A DNA stretch of 14,002 bases. Origin: a virus. Taxonomy: Duplodnaviria; Heunggongvirae; Uroviricota; Caudoviricetes. Of the stretch, positions 4,878-11,887 are shown in pieces (positions within the stretch are counted from its first letter, which is position 1; each line of letters starts with the position of its first letter). The DNA lies in the IMG/VR virus record IMGVR_UViG_3300029828_000052, positions 1-14,002 of that record; one strand, written 5' to 3'. Position numbers and translations under genes: made by a program. Under the pieces are notes generated by a model that saw nothing but the letters and a program-made list of their open reading frames with translations, had not been told where the DNA came from and did not search any database.

Positions 4878-5285
4878 TTACTGATGTTTGTTACGTTTGC
4901 GAGCTTCTAGTAGCTCGGTGAATAGGCGATTAAAATTCTCAACGCGGGCACGGAGTTCGCTGATTTGTGCTTGCTGCTCTGATTTTGGAAGTGCGCGATA
5001 CAATCGCAACATCTCCAACTCATCTTCCGATAAGTCTAAGGCGCTGTTGAGTGCAACTGGTGGATCTGGTGTTTTATCCTCGTCACCAAACAGTATCCAA
5101 GTTGGTGAACATTGCAATACCTCAGCCAGGCGATGCAAATTTTGCCCGCGCGGGGCTGTATGGTCGCTTTCCCATAGTGAAATTGATGAGCCAGATACGC
5201 CAGCAGCTTTGCTTAAATCGTTTTGACTTAAACCAACCTGTTTGCGTCTTTCTCTAATTCGTTGACCTAAAGTTTTCTCGTTCAT
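4878..5285 (-). CDS. dicA: HTH XRE-family prophage repressor, DicA-like (135 aa)
   Basis: Complete ORF; N-terminal HTH (LSQNDLSKAAGVSGSSISLWE); VLQCSPTWILFGDEDK and ARVENFNRLFTELLEARKR match my recollection of DicA; divergent from a cro-like gene. No obvious SD, so possibly leaderless. Confidence 0.9.
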   Translation of the reverse strand: MNEKTLGQRIRERRKQVGLSQNDLSKAAGVSGSSISLWESDHTAPRGQNLHRLAEVLQCSPTWILFGDEDKTPDPPVALNSALDLSEDELEMLRLYRALPKSEQQAQISELRARVENFNRLFTELLEARKRNKHQ

Positions 5286-5362
5286 ATTTAGATATCTTAA
5301 TAACCCTTGACTTGAGATTCCTTGAGTGATTACTATTGAGAAAACTCAACTTTGGAGGGGTG
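5286..5362. promoter_or_regulatory. Divergent promoter/operator region (PR/OR-like)
   Basis: -35 TTGACT (5307-5312), 18-nt spacer, -10 TACTAT (5331-5336); perfect palindrome TTGAGAAAACTCAA (5336-5349) overlapping the -10 and +1; CTTGAG half-sites at 5311-5316 and 5321-5326; GGAGGGG SD at 5354-5360. Confidence 0.6.
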
Positions 5363-5590
5363 ATGTTTAAATCAGACGTAATTAATTTTTATGGGACGAA
5401 AGCCAAAGTAGCGAAAGCTGCTGGTGTTGATCCATCTGCTGTTTCTCAATGGGGGGAATTGGTTCCTGAAGGTCGCGCGATGCGCCTGCAAGAGGCATCC
5501 GGCGGGGAACTTCAGTACGACCCCAAAGTTTATGACGAATATCGTAAGGCAAAGCGGGCGGGGCGGTTGAACAATGAAAATCACCCCTGA
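5363..5590 (+). CDS. dicC: Cro-like regulator, DicC/YdaS family (75 aa)
   Basis: ATG at 5363 sits 3 nt after the GGAGGGG SD; the track start at 5336 is a TTG inside the operator. Small basic protein divergent from the repressor gene. Confidence 0.75.
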   Translation: MFKSDVINFYGTKAKVAKAAGVDPSAVSQWGELVPEGRAMRLQEASGGELQYDPKVYDEYRKAKRAGRLNNENHP

Positions 5591-8016: not shown

Positions 8017-8279
8017 GCGAATCAAAATGTCAGGTTAATGGCAATCAGATAGAACCATGTGCGGCACTGGCAAAAGCCCTTGAGCATGATGCTGAATACA
8101 CGATGCGAAAAGGTCTGCTGATATACAAAATCTGGAATGAGAATTTAACTCGCGCCCCTGATTTGGTGATGTTGCGTTCCGGTAAATTTTCTAAATCACC
8201 TATTCGAGTCTCATTTTGCCCGTTCTGTGGTGAAAGTCTGAAAACATGGAAAAAGGAGACAACCAGTGAGCAGGATTGA
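8013..8279 (+). CDS. Hypothetical protein (88 aa), Cys-containing (CPFCG)
   Basis: GTG start at 8013 with AGGAGGT SD 6 nt upstream; GTGA overlap with the upstream gene. Confidence 0.65.
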   Translation: MSESKCQVNGNQIEPCAALAKALEHDAEYTMRKGLLIYKIWNENLTRAPDLVMLRSGKFSKSPIRVSFCPFCGESLKTWKKETTSEQD

Positions 8280-8862
8280 CTATCAGGCACTGCGTGGGGC
8301 GGCAGAAGCAATAAAAATAGCAGCCACACCACAAAAATTGCTGGCATTTCGTATGAAAGTCACACCTCAGGTTGTGCTGGCTCTACTGGATGAACGAGAT
8401 GCATTAAATGAACGCCTAGCCGAACTGGAGGCTGATTTAGCAGGGCTGGCCGAAGACCAACAGAAATCGATTGAGTCAATTAAGCAGGCTGATGAAGCTG
8501 TTAAGTTGGCACACGAGAAGTTTTCGGCGCTTGCGGCGGAGAATGAGCTGGCTCGTAAGGCAGTTCAGGCATTCTGCGATGTTGTTGGCGACAACACCGA
8601 GGTTATCGCTGAGGTGGTTGGGCGAGATAGCGTTCTGGTTATTTTGGAGGACATGAAGGCAACAGGAAATATGCCAGCCACCGATGCTTTTCTGGCTGAA
8701 GTACGGGCGCAGGGCGTGGAGATGCTGGCAAAAAATCATCAGAGTATCGTCAATGCACTTAAGGGAGATTCTTTATTTTCTGATGGTGAATACCGACATG
8801 CAGCTATTGTTTCCGCAGCTGTATATTTCGCTGCAGAGCTTCGCAAAGGAGGCAACCAGTGA
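8266..8862 (+). CDS. ead/Ea22-like family protein (198 aa)
   Basis: GTG start with AGGAG SD; N-terminal IDYQALRGAAEA and LLDERDALNERLAELEA are typical of Ea22-like proteins; paralog of the next gene. Confidence 0.75.
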   Translation: MSRIDYQALRGAAEAIKIAATPQKLLAFRMKVTPQVVLALLDERDALNERLAELEADLAGLAEDQQKSIESIKQADEAVKLAHEKFSALAAENELARKAVQAFCDVVGDNTEVIAEVVGRDSVLVILEDMKATGNMPATDAFLAEVRAQGVEMLAKNHQSIVNALKGDSLFSDGEYRHAAIVSAAVYFAAELRKGGNQ

Positions 8863-9467
8863 GAAAAATTAATTATCAGGCGCTACGTGATGCGGCAGAA
8901 AAGGCAACACAGGGTGAATGGGTCGCATTTATTTCGCCGGGCAAATACGGCACGTACGCCGTGCACACACCAGGAGATAATCATCACGGAGATATTGTCG
9001 ACTGGCCTGGATTCGACGGACAGAAAAACGCAGAGAACAACGCTCGTTATATCGCAGCTTTCAACCCTGAAGTAGTGCAGGCGCTGTTGGATGAACGAGA
9101 AGCCCAAAGCAAACGCATTGCAGAGCTGGAGGCTAATTTCACGGTGCTGGCAGTGGAGAATGTTGGAATAAAGTCTGCAATCCCAGAGCCACGGGATATT
9201 GAGGATGACAATGACAATATGGATGACGTCTCTCTTGCTGAAGACTTCGGATTCAATCATGCAATAGAATGGATGAGGAGACGGATTGAAACTCCAGCCA
9301 CCGACGCTTTCCTGGCGGATGTGCGGGCTGGGGCGTTTAACGACCTTTGCGCGGCGTTTGTCAGGCACGCAAAAGTTGCAGGACTGGATGATGCCGATAC
9401 CGTAACGCTTAAGGAAGTGACAGAAGTATTGTTGCATTGTGCGGAACAGATTCGCGCGCCTGAATAA
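8859..9467 (+). CDS. ead/Ea22-like family protein (202 aa), tandem paralog
   Basis: GTG start in GTGA overlap with the upstream paralog; shares INYQALRDAAEKA, LLDEREAQSKRIAELEA and PATDAFLADVRAG with it. Confidence 0.75.
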   Translation: MRKINYQALRDAAEKATQGEWVAFISPGKYGTYAVHTPGDNHHGDIVDWPGFDGQKNAENNARYIAAFNPEVVQALLDEREAQSKRIAELEANFTVLAVENVGIKSAIPEPRDIEDDNDNMDDVSLAEDFGFNHAIEWMRRRIETPATDAFLADVRAGAFNDLCAAFVRHAKVAGLDDADTVTLKEVTEVLLHCAEQIRAPE

Positions 9468-9562
9468 TTAAATTTAGTGTTGTAAATAAAATTTAATCCT
9501 TAACCGGAGGGATTTCTGCACCCTCAGAACATCAGGAGGCCGCCCGAAAGGGCGGTAATGAA

Positions 9563-9745
9563 ATGCGAAAGTTCAAAATAATTATTGAAACGGGAATAGC
9601 TGGTGGAGATTTTGAAGATGTATTCGAAGTGGATGATGATGCGACACCAGATGAAATAAAGGACGAAGCAAAAGAAATTTTCTTTAACTACTGCAATTAC
9701 TCATATCACGAAATAAAAGACGAGGAGGAAGAACAAAATGGCTGA
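9563..9745 (+). CDS. Small highly acidic protein (60 aa)
   Basis: Complete ORF; very D/E-rich; AGGAGG lies about 30 nt upstream, separated from the ATG by a GCCGCCC-GAAA-GGGCGG hairpin. Confidence 0.55.
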   Translation: MRKFKIIIETGIAGGDFEDVFEVDDDATPDEIKDEAKEIFFNYCNYSYHEIKDEEEEQNG

Positions 9746-9914
9746 TTTTGGTTCAACTAAATATAACGCCAGTTTTGAAGAATGGCATGAACTGTTAATG
9801 GATTATGCAGAGTTACGCGGTGGAAGTGCCGCTGATGCTGAAGCATGGCGTGATGATTATGAAGCAGGAAAAACTCCGGTCGAAGCATATTGTGATGAGT
9901 GGGGCGATGAATGA
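9738..9914 (+). CDS. Small acidic protein (58 aa)
   Basis: My own translation (below track cutoff): MADFGSTKYNASFEEWHELLMDYAELRGGSAADAEAWRDDYEAGKTPVEAYCDEWGDE. ATGGCTGA overlap with the upstream gene; GAGGAGG SD. Confidence 0.5.
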   Translation: MADFGSTKYNASFEEWHELLMDYAELRGGSAADAEAWRDDYEAGKTPVEAYCDEWGDE

Positions 9915-9935
9915 ACCACCACAAGAGGGGGCATA

Positions 9936-10112
9936 ATGAAAATGCGGATGGGAAATTGTTTATTGCCGTATCTGGTGCGGTTTGGGGCGTCGTCATTAAC
10001 AGTTATTCCACATGTCATGATGGTTGACAATATTATCCCGGCACCGAAGCGCCGTACCGGTATTGCAGCGGCACGACGTGCAGCAAAGAAACGCAGGAGA
10101 GCAAAACGATGA
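9936..10112 (+). CDS. Small protein (58 aa) with hydrophobic N-terminus and Arg/Lys-rich C-terminus
   Basis: My own translation: MKMRMGNCLLPYLVRFGASSLTVIPHVMMVDNIIPAPKRRTGIAAARRAAKKRRRAKR. AGAGGGGG SD 5 nt upstream; ATGA overlap with the next ORF. Confidence 0.4.
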   Translation: MKMRMGNCLLPYLVRFGASSLTVIPHVMMVDNIIPAPKRRTGIAAARRAAKKRRRAKR

Positions 10113-10297
10113 AAAACCGTAAAGCAAAAATTCTGTTAGCTCGCAGAAACGGTCCTGGCGTCTGGCAGTGGGTGAGACTCAGCAACCGACGAATGGGGTT
10201 GATGAAATATTACGGGATGATGGATTGTGGTTTTTGCAAAAAGCCCAGCGCGGCGCAAAACCGCTGGAAAAACCACTTGCGCACTAAAGGAGAGTGA
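10109..10297 (+). CDS. Small basic protein (62 aa)
   Basis: Complete ORF; GGAGAG SD; translationally coupled to neighbours on both sides. Confidence 0.5.
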   Translation: MKNRKAKILLARRNGPGVWQWVRLSNRRMGLMKYYGMMDCGFCKKPSAAQNRWKNHLRTKGE

Positions 10298-10298
10298 T

Positions 10299-10814
10299 AT
10301 GGCGTTAACACACCGCGAACTCTGTCAGATTGCGTATAAGTTCCTTAAGCGCAACGGGTTCAAGGTTTGTTTTCATGACCGCTTTATAGCTGTAACCAGT
10401 ACCGGAGAACAGCCAGATGCTATGGGATTCAGAAATTCAGCATCATGCCTGATAGAGGCGAAATGTTCTCGTGCTGACTTGTTGGCAGATAGAAAAAAGC
10501 GTTTTCGTAAAAATCCGTCTCTTGGAATGGGCGACTGGCGATTCTTTATTAGTGAGCCGGGAATTATTTCAGTTGAGGATTTACCACCTGGCTGGGGATT
10601 ACTTCACGTTGTTAACGGAAGAGTACGGAAAGTACATGGGTGGCCCAAGGGGAATTGCTGTTGGGGTAACCCTGAAGATAAACCTTTTATTGGGAATAAG
10701 CAGGTTGAATGCGATTACATGTTATCTGCATTAAGGCGCATGGAGTTGAGAGGGCACCTTAATGAAATATATGACGGCGTAATTGTTAATAAGAAAGAAG
10801 GAAACGCGGCATGA
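10299..10814 (+). CDS. Hypothetical protein (171 aa) with PD-(D/E)XK nuclease-like motif
   Basis: ATG at 10299 with AAGGAG SD 6 nt upstream (the track start at 10227 overlaps the previous gene). GEQPDAMGF followed by CLIEAKCS fits a PD...ExK signature. Confidence 0.65.
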   Translation: MALTHRELCQIAYKFLKRNGFKVCFHDRFIAVTSTGEQPDAMGFRNSASCLIEAKCSRADLLADRKKRFRKNPSLGMGDWRFFISEPGIISVEDLPPGWGLLHVVNGRVRKVHGWPKGNCCWGNPEDKPFIGNKQVECDYMLSALRRMELRGHLNEIYDGVIVNKKEGNAA

Positions 10815-11317
10815 CCACTATTACCAAAGAGCGACTACTGACAATCAAGCAGTGGCGCGAAACATACGGACCTGGTAGCAACGTTATACTGCCAGCAGAA
10901 GAAGCGGAAGAACTGGCACGGATTGCACTGGCATCACTGGAAGCAGAGCCGGTGGTTTACATGTGGGATAGCGAAAGAAAAGATATTGATGCCCCCGGGT
11001 ATTATCGGGCTGAGCATTTAGTGTTCGCTGAGAGTAGTGTTAAGCAATGGGGAGGGCGAGTTGTTCCACTTTACACCGCCCCGCCAGCGACGGTAGTGCC
11101 GGAATTTGAAACATGGTTTAACAGCCAGGAGCCAGGGAGGAGTATATGCAGCACACAGATTCGTCGCTCCCTTCAGGAAATCTCATGGAACGCCTGCTGC
11201 GCCGCTCCCTTCAGGAAATCTCATGGAACGCCTGCTGCGCCGCCATGCTTCAGGGGAAAGGCGATGGTATCCTCACCAATGAGGATACCAAAGGGGACGT
11301 TCAGGTACGGGAATTAA
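10811..11317 (+). CDS. Hypothetical protein, C-terminus frameshifted by a 38-bp tandem duplication (possible pseudogene)
   Basis: ATGA overlap with the upstream gene; protein-like up to the repeat at about 11165, then an aberrant tail (PFRKSHGTPAAPPCFRGKAMVSSPMRIPKGTFRYGN). Confidence 0.55.
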   Translation: MTTITKERLLTIKQWRETYGPGSNVILPAEEAEELARIALASLEAEPVVYMWDSERKDIDAPGYYRAEHLVFAESSVKQWGGRVVPLYTAPPATVVPEFETWFNSQEPGRSICSTQIRRSLQEISWNACCAAPFRKSHGTPAAPPCFRGKAMVSSPMRIPKGTFRYGN

Positions 11318-11522: not shown

Positions 11523-11674
11523 AAACGGTTTGCGGGAAAAGGAGAGTTAAGTAGAATTGCTGCGGGTGCTTGAGGCTATCTGCCTCAGGCATGAACACCA
11601 AAAGGCAGATAGAGAAAAGCCCCAGTTAACATTACGCGTCCTGCAAGACGCTTAACATTAATCTGAGGCTCCCT

Positions 11675-11887
11675 ATGCATGACAACATCAGGTTAGCCTC
11701 TTACGTGCCGAAAGGCAAGGAGAAGCAGGCTATGAAGCAGCAAAAGGCGATGTTAATCGCCCTGATCGTCATCTGTTTAACCGTCATAGTGACGGCACTG
11801 GTAACGAGGAAAGACCTCTGCGAGGTACGAATCCGAACCGGCCAGACGGAGGTCGCTGTCTTCACAGCTTACGAACCTGAGGAGTAA
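11675..11887 (+). CDS. Mok-like reading frame (in-frame N-terminal extension of hok, 70 aa)
   Basis: Complete 70-aa ORF that contains Hok; this architecture matches the annotated chromosomal mok/hok pairs as I recall them. Confidence 0.5.
   Translation: MHDNIRLASYVPKGKEKQAMKQQKAMLIALIVICLTVIVTALVTRKDLCEVRIRTGQTEVAVFTAYEPEE
11732..11887 (+). CDS. hokD: Hok/Gef-family type I toxin (51 aa), HokD-like
   Basis: MKQQKAMLIALIVICLTVIVTALVTRKDLCEVRIRTGQTEVAVFTAYEPEE: single transmembrane helix and conserved C-terminus typical of Hok; followed by a 3' stem-loop and an intrinsic terminator. Confidence 0.85.
   Translation: MKQQKAMLIALIVICLTVIVTALVTRKDLCEVRIRTGQTEVAVFTAYEPEE

What the first reader, a model, noticed from the sequence alone, without database searches (positions are those of the whole stretch)
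9480..10814. Tightly coupled operon of two acidic and two basic micro-proteins plus a PD-(D/E)XK-motif protein
Five ORFs are chained by start/stop overlaps (ATGGCTGA, ATGA, 1-nt gap, ATGA). The first two are strongly acidic (60 and 58 aa), a composition seen in DNA-mimic anti-restriction proteins. The next two are very basic, and the last (171 aa) carries a PD...ExK nuclease-like signature. Upstream, the AGGAGG at 9527-9532 is separated from the first ATG (9563) by a GCCGCCC-GAAA-GGGCGG hairpin (9534-9552), which could regulate initiation. No family is recognisable to me for any of the five.
Basis: partly seen in the sequence, partly recalled or inferred. Interest (0 to 1): 0.55.

Follow-up and report, generated by a model that had tools for sequence, protein, structure and literature searches.

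The report
Mosaic prophage accessory genes with nuclease
This is an ordinary stretch of shuffled accessory genes in a lambda-like E. coli prophage. Four are small proteins of unknown function and one is a DNA-cutting enzyme distantly related to the bacterial repair nuclease MmcB; they are not a dedicated five-gene system.

Summary
The five ORFs are real and mostly as described. The acidic and basic compositions and the PD...ExK motif check out. ORF2 and ORF3 do not overlap (21-nt gap), and the AGGAGG and hairpin lie 5-7 nt right of the stated positions.

The block sits in the rightward early operon of a Rac/Qin-like lambdoid prophage, between replication gene P and hok/sok-DUF968, the position of lambda's nin region.

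It is a mosaic, not a co-inherited operon. ORF2 follows ORF1 in 79 of 80 related viral loci, ORF3 and ORF4 in none, ORF5 in 2. ORF2, ORF4 and ORF5 each occur without their window neighbours in other phages.

All five ORFs appear to be under purifying selection (ORF3/ORF4 more weakly). Nothing links the acidic proteins to known DNA mimics. The leader hairpin looks like the split ribosome-binding sites of T4 genes 38 and 25, but covariation is not significant.

Low to moderate interest; ORF5 is a new member of a known kind.

The parts
9468..9562 (+). Intergenic leader between the second Ead/Ea22-like gene and ORF1. A weaker hairpin lies at 9507-9525.
   Evidence: An 81-nt fold gives -24.6 kcal/mol, z = -2.5 against shuffles. 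No promoter-like or terminator-like site was found here.
9534..9539 (+). Strong Shine-Dalgarno sequence AGGAGG, 23 nt upstream of the ORF1 AUG.
   Evidence: exact position. Invariant or nearly so in 30 leader variants.
9539..9556 (+). 7-bp G+C-rich hairpin with a GAAA loop, lying between the Shine-Dalgarno sequence and the AUG. If it forms, the effective spacing falls from 23 nt to 6 nt. Its 3' arm contains a weak proximal SD-like GGCGGU.
   Evidence: -15.5 kcal/mol here, and a hairpin closing at the same pair in all 30 variants (-15.5 to -5.4). Covariation is not significant. Precedent in T4 genes 38 and 25: PMC3014915.
9563..9745 (+). ORF1: 60-aa acidic protein, Pfam DUF7167, phrog_1997. Function unknown.
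   Evidence: pN/pS 0.11.
9738..9914 (+). ORF2: 58-aa acidic protein with a predicted three-helix bundle, matching the C-terminal part of phrog_519. It overlaps ORF1 by 8 nt and follows it in 79 of 80 related viral loci.
   Evidence: pN/pS 0.11.
9936..10112 (+). ORF3: 58-aa very basic protein with an arginine-rich C-terminal tail, phrog_13831. It has the narrowest distribution of the five.
   Evidence: The frame is kept with in-frame indels; pN/pS 0.3-0.4 against TL-2011b and phiV10.
10109..10297 (+). ORF4: 62-aa basic protein, phrog_1380. Conserved MKNRKAK N-terminus and SAAQNRWKNHLRTKG C-terminus. The CxxC is not conserved, so it is not a zinc finger.
   Evidence: Occurs without ORF5 in Min27, Sasha and HK225.
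10299..10814 (+). ORF5: 171-aa PD-(D/E)XK nuclease-fold protein, a phage sister family of MmcB (PF06319).
10416..10463 (+). Codons of the predicted catalytic motif D40 ... E53-x-K55 of ORF5.
   Evidence: Invariant or at least 90% conserved. They sit at the start of strand 2 and on strand 3 of the model. They align with the D..ECK motif of 3dnx.

Best explanation
The segment is part of the rightward early (pR-type) transcription unit of a Rac/Qin-like lambdoid prophage of Enterobacteriaceae. It lies in the variable accessory region that follows replication gene P, the position of lambda's ren/nin genes.

It is a mosaic of at least four independently exchangeable cassettes: [ORF1 DUF7167 + ORF2], [ORF3], [ORF4] and [ORF5]. 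These were packed head to tail by recombination. The start/stop overlaps are the usual compact, translationally coupled layout of such regions, not the mark of a dedicated five-part machine.

ORF5 is inferred to be a metal-dependent DNA endonuclease of the PD-(D/E)XK fold, homologous to the MmcB DNA-repair nuclease and more distantly to Hjc-type resolvases. Its most likely job is cutting branched or damaged DNA during phage replication and recombination. The activity and the substrate are inferred, not shown.

ORF1 to ORF4 are real, selected small proteins whose functions remain unknown.

ORF1 is probably translated from a 'split' ribosome-binding site. The stable hairpin at 9539-9556 would loop out 18 nt and bring AGGAGG to 6 nt from the AUG, as in T4 genes 38 and 25. 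This is an inference from geometry.
For: Context:
- A cI-like HTH repressor (4878-5285, minus strand), Cro, a YdaT-like protein, a DnaT-domain replication protein, lambda-P-like, DUF977 and two Ead/Ea22-like genes lie upstream. hok/sok and DUF968 lie downstream.
- Related prophages continue with RusA and Q.

Mosaicism:
- Only 1 of 5426 complete E. coli genomes has a place covering at least 80% of the 1335 bp, although 2935 have some part of it.
- In 80 viral loci carrying ORF1, ORF2 follows at +175 nt in 79, ORF3 and ORF4 in 0, and ORF5 in 2.
- ORF2 occurs alone after gpA in P2-like Salmonella prophages and after Ea22 genes in Enterobacter.
- ORF4 occurs alone in Min27, Sasha and HK225, and as tandem paralogues in TL-2011b and phiV10.
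- A recombination joint lies inside ORF4.

ORF5:
- The AlphaFold model has mean pLDDT 83 and alpha-beta-beta-beta-alpha-beta order.
- 3dnx is an MmcB family protein, PF06319.
- The family profile hits 3dnx at E 9e-5.
- hhalign against an MmcB profile gives probability 97.8%, E 7e-13.
- D40, E53 and K55 are conserved.
- The family has 3240 representative clusters and appears in 643 phage records.
- In CBA120 the homologue abuts the DNA primase gene.
- MmcB is described as a PD-(D/E)XK endonuclease protecting Caulobacter from mitomycin C (PMC9578287).

Coding status: pN/pS 0.06-0.17 for ORF1, 2, 4 and 5, and 0.3-0.6 for diverged ORF3 and ORF4 pairs.

Hairpin.
Against: - No biochemical or genetic data exist for any of the five proteins. 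The nuclease activity and substrate of ORF5 are inferred from fold and motif only.
- ORF5 itself does not reach any Pfam or NCBIfam threshold.
- ORF4 (two divergent alleles) sits 1 nt upstream of ORF5 in five lambdoid loci. A functional ORF4-ORF5 link in this lineage is therefore not excluded.
- The 80 loci used for co-occurrence are close relatives (95-100% identity in ORF1) and are not independent samples.
- Hairpin covariation is no better than shuffled controls.
- ORF5 is frameshifted in some O157 prophages, so it is dispensable at least in the lysogen.
Confidence: 0.72

Rival explanations
1. The five genes form one functional system, for example an anti-defence or superinfection-exclusion operon. 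Acidic inhibitors, basic nucleic-acid binders and a nuclease would act together.
For: Tight physical packing and same-strand overlaps. One E. coli genome (OkiPb01697) carries relatives of all five in the same order, with an IS66 element and an extra gene inserted.
Against: - In 80 loci with ORF1, ORF3 and ORF4 follow in 0 and ORF5 in 2.
- Each cassette occurs alone elsewhere.
- No PADLOC match for any of them.
- Members are individually disrupted in some prophages.
Confidence: 0.05
2. ORF1 and ORF2 are a translationally coupled pair of acidic proteins. They would act as a DNA mimic or other protein inhibitor of a host nuclease or defence system, such as restriction or RecBCD.
For: - Net charge -13 of 60 aa and -12 of 58 aa.
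- An 8-nt overlap, and linkage in 79 of 80 related loci.
- Strong purifying selection.
- They sit in an accessory region where such genes are typically found (general knowledge).
Against: - No sequence match to any anti-restriction family.
- ORF2 occurs without ORF1 in Salmonella and Enterobacter prophages.
- DUF7167 occurs without ORF2 in Klebsiella and Enterococcus phages.
- Acidic composition is common among small phage proteins.
Confidence: 0.1
3. ORF4 and ORF5 work as a two-part nuclease. The small basic protein would be a DNA-binding or regulatory subunit for the PD-(D/E)XK enzyme.
For: - A conserved TGA-N-ATG junction with a shared AAGGAGAG Shine-Dalgarno in four lambdoid phages. These include two ORF4 alleles only about 55% identical to each other.
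- phrog_9263 (230 positions) covers ORF4 and then ORF5, as if fused in some phages.
Against: - ORF4 homologues occur without ORF5 in Min27/933W-type phages, Sasha, HK225 and phiV10.
- ORF5 homologues occur without ORF4 in many phages.
- The conserved junction lies inside a block of near-identical DNA that begins within ORF4, so it may simply be co-inherited.
Confidence: 0.13
4. The hairpin at 9539-9556 represses ORF1 translation. It would do so by sequestering the proximal SD-like GGCGGU and holding the AUG region in structure, giving conditional expression.
For: - The 3' arm contains GGCGGU, 6 nt from the AUG.
- Two loci lacking the 5' arm and AGGAGG still carry ORF1 with this element free.
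- The hairpin is very stable, -15.5 kcal/mol.
Against: - A consensus AGGAGG abuts the stem, and the stem's closing pair is kept in all 30 variants. This keeps the looped-out spacing at 6 nt. That is the geometry shown to enhance initiation in T4 genes 38 and 25 (PMC3014915).
- The AUG itself is unpaired.
Confidence: 0.3

Closest known systems
MmcB family DNA repair protein (Pfam PF06319; Caulobacter MmcB; structure 3dnx, Ruegeria pomeroyi SPO1766)
   Same: - Same size (about 150-170 aa) and the same single-domain PD-(D/E)XK fold.
- Same active-site block: D ... E-C/A-K-S-S-R-x-D-F/L-x-x-D.
   Different: - ORF5 does not reach the Pfam threshold.
- It has an extra GMGDWRF loop and a distinct conserved C-terminal half (W99-G-L-L, K134, E137, R146-R147).
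- It is carried by phages and prophages rather than being an SOS-regulated alphaproteobacterial chromosomal gene.
- No link to crosslink repair has been shown.
Archaeal Holliday junction resolvase Hjc (PF01870) and related small PD-(D/E)XK resolvases
   Different: Much weaker similarity than to MmcB. Related prophages already carry RusA as resolvase downstream. Junction cleavage is untested.
Lambda nin region and P22/lambdoid 'ea' accessory regions
   Same: - Same genomic position: after replication genes, before the Q antiterminator.
- Same style: many small, overlapping, non-essential, mosaic genes.
- The same cassettes also appear in the leftward exo-xis/ea region of Stx phages.
   Different: None of ORF1 to ORF5 matches the named Nin proteins (NinB, NinE, NinG and others) in Pfam.
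Split ribosome-binding sites of T4 genes 38 and 25
   Same: A strong Shine-Dalgarno sequence too far from the AUG (23 nt here; 22 and 27 nt in T4), with an intervening hairpin that restores a working distance (6 nt here; 5 and 11 nt in T4).
   Different: Not tested here. Covariation support is lacking. A proximal weak SD lies inside the stem.
DNA-mimic anti-restriction proteins (Ocr, ArdA)
   Same: High density of negative charge.
   Different: No sequence or structural similarity was detected. ORF1 and ORF2 are much smaller (58-60 aa). No functional data.

Membership tests
PD-(D/E)XK nuclease superfamily (ORF5) | Core alpha-beta-beta-beta-alpha-beta fold | tested here: met
   [not shown]
PD-(D/E)XK nuclease superfamily (ORF5) | Catalytic D ... 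(D/E)-x-K on strands 2 and 3 | tested here: met
   D40 is invariant. E53 and K55 are invariant among 23 close relatives and at least 90% conserved among 40 distant ones.
PD-(D/E)XK nuclease superfamily (ORF5) | Metal-dependent phosphodiester cleavage | not testable with these tools
   Needs a biochemical assay.
MmcB-like, Pfam PF06319 (ORF5) | Score above the Pfam gathering threshold | tested here: not met
   No Pfam hit at E <= 0.1 for the window protein. 10 of 40 distant relatives hit PF06319 only weakly, best E 2.9e-4.
MmcB-like, Pfam PF06319 (ORF5) | Homology detectable by profile and by structure | tested here: met
   [not shown]
MmcB-like, Pfam PF06319 (ORF5) | Role in repair of mitomycin C or crosslink damage, with SOS regulation | not tested
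   The gene is phage-borne. No LexA site search or phenotype test was done. The role of MmcB is taken from PMC9578287.
Hjc-type Holliday junction resolvase, PF01870 (ORF5) | Significant family match and junction-specific cleavage | tested here: inconclusive
   [not shown]
DUF7167, Pfam PF23768 (ORF1) | Score above the gathering threshold over the full model | tested here: met
   52.5 bits against a cut-off of 24.4, residues 2-53 on model positions 1-60.
DNA-mimic anti-restriction proteins (ORF1, ORF2) | Strongly acidic surface | tested here: met
   pI about 4.05, net charge -13 and -12. This is composition only, not surface geometry.
DNA-mimic anti-restriction proteins (ORF1, ORF2) | Sequence or fold similarity to a known mimic (Ocr, ArdA and others) | tested here: not met
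   [not shown]
DNA-mimic anti-restriction proteins (ORF1, ORF2) | Inhibition of a DNA-binding enzyme | not testable with these tools
   Needs an experiment.
Dedicated multi-gene system (operon inherited as a unit) | Components co-occur across related elements | tested here: not met
   Only ORF1 and ORF2 are consistently linked, and only among close relatives.
Lambda Nin proteins | Match to NinB, NinE, NinG or other Nin families | tested here: not met
   No such Pfam hit for ORF1 to ORF5. The positional analogy holds.
Split (hairpin-bridged) ribosome-binding site | Strong Shine-Dalgarno more than 15 nt from the AUG, with an intervening stable stem giving 5-11 nt effective spacing | tested here: met
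   23 nt falls to 6 nt; stem -15.5 kcal/mol.
Split (hairpin-bridged) ribosome-binding site | The stem is required for efficient initiation, or is supported by covariation | tested here: inconclusive
   95% of cells are paired, but covariation measures are no better than shuffles. One pair has 2 compensatory and 8 broken cases.

The most novel reading that the evidence does not exclude
ORF1 (DUF7167) and ORF2 are a tightly linked, translationally coupled pair of highly acidic 58-60-aa proteins. They might form a complex that inhibits a host nuclease or defence system, which would be a new small anti-defence module. A side lead is that DUF7167 proteins sit directly next to nucleases in unrelated Klebsiella phages, which could point to a nuclease-modulating role.
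Probability: 0.1. Interest if true: 0.6.

Novelty: new member of a known kind. Interest (0 to 1): 0.25.

Why it matters
The practical value is in annotation.

- A very large family is currently labelled 'hypothetical protein' and has no Pfam or NCBIfam model. It has about 3,200 representative clusters and appears in 643 phage genomes, from lambdoid prophages to Vibrio phages and Ackermannviridae. It can now be placed as a sister family of the MmcB repair nuclease, with D40, E53 and K55 as the residues to mutate.
- The block also shows that tight start/stop overlaps in phage accessory regions do not imply a functional unit.
- If ORF5-type nucleases prove to process damaged or branched DNA, that would explain why so many unrelated phages carry one.
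- The four small proteins remain open targets. Nothing here marks them as exceptional.

Tried and rejected
- Pfam, NCBIfam and PADLOC scans of ORF2 to ORF5 gave nothing.
- Sequence searches of ORF1, ORF2, ORF4 and ORF5 against solved structures gave only chance-level hits.
- Rfam found nothing in the finding itself, only sok downstream.
- The promoter and terminator scan found no site in the leader. The hairpin has no U tract on either strand, so it is not an intrinsic terminator.
- ORF4 as a zinc finger (CGFC...H) was rejected because the cysteines are absent in the other ORF4 allele.
- ORF4-ORF5 as one frameshifted gene was rejected for this lineage. Four phages keep the same TGA-N-ATG junction. 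The PGAP 'frameshifted' label in relatives refers to ORF5 itself. phrog_9263 does suggest that fused or frameshifted versions exist elsewhere; I did not trace them.
- ORF3 as a membrane peptide was rejected by eye. Its conserved N-terminal half contains prolines and charged residues. I did not run a hydrophobicity or TM prediction.
- ORF3's arginine-rich tail binding the upstream GAAA hairpin was rejected, because ORF3 and the leader never co-occur in the 80 loci.
- Fold searches of the ORF2 model were uninformative.
- The afdb50 fold library was unavailable.
- Literature searches for DUF7167 and for anti-defence genes of lambdoid nin regions found nothing specific.
Full report
**What is in the sequence**

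The five + strand ORFs exist at 9563-9745, 9738-9914, 9936-10112, 10109-10297 and 10299-10814.
- ATGGCTGA at 9738-9745
- ATGA at 10109-10112
- a single base between the ORF4 stop and the ORF5 start
- ATGA at 10811-10814 into the next gene

ORF2 and ORF3 are the exception. They are separated by 21 nt that carry their own Shine-Dalgarno sequence, so the chain is not continuous.

The compositions hold. ORF1 and ORF2 have pI about 4.05 and net charges of -13 and -12. ORF3 and ORF4 have pI 12.0 and 11.3.

AGGAGG is at 9534-9539 and the GCCGCCC-GAAA-GGGCGGU hairpin at 9539-9556.

**Are they genes?**

- Pooled pN/pS is 0.11 for ORF1 (31 variants), 0.11 for ORF2 (41 variants), 0.06 for ORF5 and 0.17 for ORF4.
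- Diverged ORF3 and ORF4 homologues in TL-2011b, phiV10, HK225 and Sasha keep the frame through indels of 3 or 6 nt, with pN/pS of 0.3-0.6.
- All five therefore behave as protein-coding genes. ORF3 is the least constrained and least widespread, found in 18 phage records.

**Where it sits**

Upstream of the block:
- a cI-like HTH repressor on the minus strand (4878-5285)
- Cro (5336-5590)
- a YdaT-like protein
- a DnaT-domain replication protein
- a lambda-P-like protein
- DUF977
- two tandem Ead/Ea22-like genes

Downstream are a DUF551-type gene, hok/sok (Rfam sok, 118 bits) and DUF968. Related E. coli prophages continue with RusA and antiterminator Q.

The block therefore lies in the rightward early operon in the position of lambda's nin region. 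The same cassettes also turn up in the leftward exo-xis/ea region of Stx phages such as Min27.

**It is a mosaic, not a unit**

- Parts of the 1335 bp occur in 2935 of 5426 complete E. coli genomes. Only one genome has a place covering at least 80% of it, and there an IS66 element and an extra gene interrupt it.
- In 80 viral contigs that encode ORF1, ORF2 follows at exactly +175 nt in 79. ORF3 and ORF4 follow in none, and ORF5 in two.
- ORF2 relatives stand alone after gpA in P2-like Salmonella prophages and after Ea22-like genes in Enterobacter.
- ORF4 relatives stand without ORF5 in Min27, Sasha and HK225, and are tandemly duplicated in TL-2011b and phiV10.
- ORF5 relatives stand without ORF4 in an O157:H7 prophage, Klebsiella and Vibrio phages, large virulent phages and CBA120.
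- A recombination joint is visible inside ORF4. The two ORF4 alleles are about 55% identical until 'SAAQNRW', after which the DNA is nearly identical through ORF5.

One caveat applies. The 80 loci are close relatives, so the counts are not independent events.

**Families**

- ORF1 is Pfam DUF7167 (52.5 bits against a cut-off of 24.4).
- All five match PHROG families of unknown function.
- NCBIfam and PADLOC give nothing.
- Borderline DUF7167 relatives occur in Klebsiella Guernseyvirinae, overlapping a DUF2800/PDDEXK_1 exonuclease. They also occur in Enterococcus Herelleviridae next to a DUF3850/ASCH protein. This is a lead, not a pattern.

**ORF5**

- An alignment of 23 relatives keeps D27, E37, D40, E53 and K55 invariant.
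- The AlphaFold model has mean pLDDT 83 and pTM 0.79. It has the canonical alpha-beta-beta-beta-alpha-beta order, with D40 before strand 2 and E53-x-K55 on strand 3.
- 3dnx is an MmcB family DNA repair protein, PF06319.
- A full HMMER scan of 1.84 billion representatives found 3240 clusters at E <= 0.001.
- A profile of 40 distant members hits 3dnx at E 9.3e-5. It aligns to an MmcB profile with 97.8% probability, E 6.9e-13.
- Individual members hit PF06319 or Hjc only weakly, and the window protein hits neither.
- ORF5 is therefore a sister family of MmcB rather than a member by Pfam's criterion.
- MmcB is described as a PD-(D/E)XK endonuclease that protects Caulobacter against mitomycin C (PMC9578287).
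- The family occurs in 643 phage records, including lambdoid, Vibrio, Klebsiella and Ackermannviridae phages. In CBA120 it abuts the DNA primase gene.
- I infer a structure- or damage-directed DNA endonuclease used in phage replication or recombination. Activity and substrate are not shown.
- It is frameshifted in some O157 prophages, so it is dispensable in the lysogen.

**The acidic proteins**

- Nothing beyond composition supports a DNA-mimic role.
- The ORF2 model (pLDDT 80) is a three-helix bundle.
- In BFVD only uncharacterised phage proteins match.
- The ORF1-ORF2 linkage is real among close relatives but breaks down at greater distance.

**The basic proteins**

- The CxxC of ORF4 is absent in the other allele, so it is not a zinc finger. 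Its conserved parts are MKNRKAK and SAAQNRWKNHLRTKG.
- ORF3 ends in an arginine-rich tail.
- Nucleic-acid binding is a reasonable guess for both, and no more than a guess.

**The leader**

- The hairpin is stable: -15.5 kcal/mol alone, and z = -2.5 for the 81-nt leader.
- It has no U tract on either strand, so it is not a terminator (none was found by the scan).
- It separates AGGAGG from the AUG by 23 nt. If it is looped out, the spacing becomes 6 nt.
- T4 genes 38 and 25 use exactly this arrangement (22 to 5 nt and 27 to 11 nt) to enhance initiation (PMC3014915).
- All 30 distinct leader variants keep a hairpin closing at the same pair.
- Covariation is no better than shuffled controls. One pair shows 2 compensatory and 8 broken cases.
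- The 3' arm also holds a weak SD-like GGCGGU, so a repressive role is not excluded.

**Verdict**

The 'operon' reading is not. The nuclease call is right and can be made more precise. The block is ordinary lambdoid accessory DNA. The one useful addition is placing a very large unannotated phage family next to MmcB.

Noticed in passing
window 11162-11237 (within ORF6, 10811-11317): A near-perfect 38-nt tandem duplication (the two copies differ at one base) frameshifts the DUF551-type gene that follows ORF5. Deleting one copy in silico restores a single 197-aa ORF running to 11442.
   Followed up: yes
window 11564-11887: A hok/sok type I toxin-antitoxin locus. The Rfam sok match is at 11564-11737 (118 bits). 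The overlapping 70-aa hok/mok-type ORF is at 11675-11887.
   Followed up: partly
window 8266-8862 and 8859-9467: Two tandem Ead/Ea22-like paralogues overlapping by GTGA, immediately upstream of the finding. Ea22-like N-terminal modules are also found fused to ORF5-like domains in Salmonella proteins (P0087, P0092, P0119).
   Followed up: partly
L105 2501-4025; L104 2501-4025; L106 1971-2671: Borderline DUF7167 relatives overlap a DUF2800/PDDEXK_1 exonuclease in Klebsiella Guernseyvirinae recombination modules. In Enterococcus Herelleviridae they follow a DUF3850/ASCH protein. This is a possible nuclease association for DUF7167.
   Followed up: partly
L005 3105-3469; L103 1653-2023: The ORF4 family occurs as two tandem, diverged paralogues in phages TL-2011b and phiV10.
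   Followed up: partly
[not shown]
   Followed up: partly
window 10052-10109 (ORF3 C-terminus): An arginine-rich tail, RRTGIAAARRAAKKRRRAKR, reminiscent of arginine-rich RNA-binding motifs. No partner RNA was identified. It does not co-occur with the upstream GAAA hairpin in other loci.
   Followed up: no
window 10109-10814 against phrog_9263: A 230-position PHROG profile covers ORF4 (positions 1-61) and then ORF5 (positions 62-230). This implies that fused or frameshifted ORF4-ORF5 genes are annotated in some phages. The four phages inspected all keep two separate genes.
   Followed up: partly
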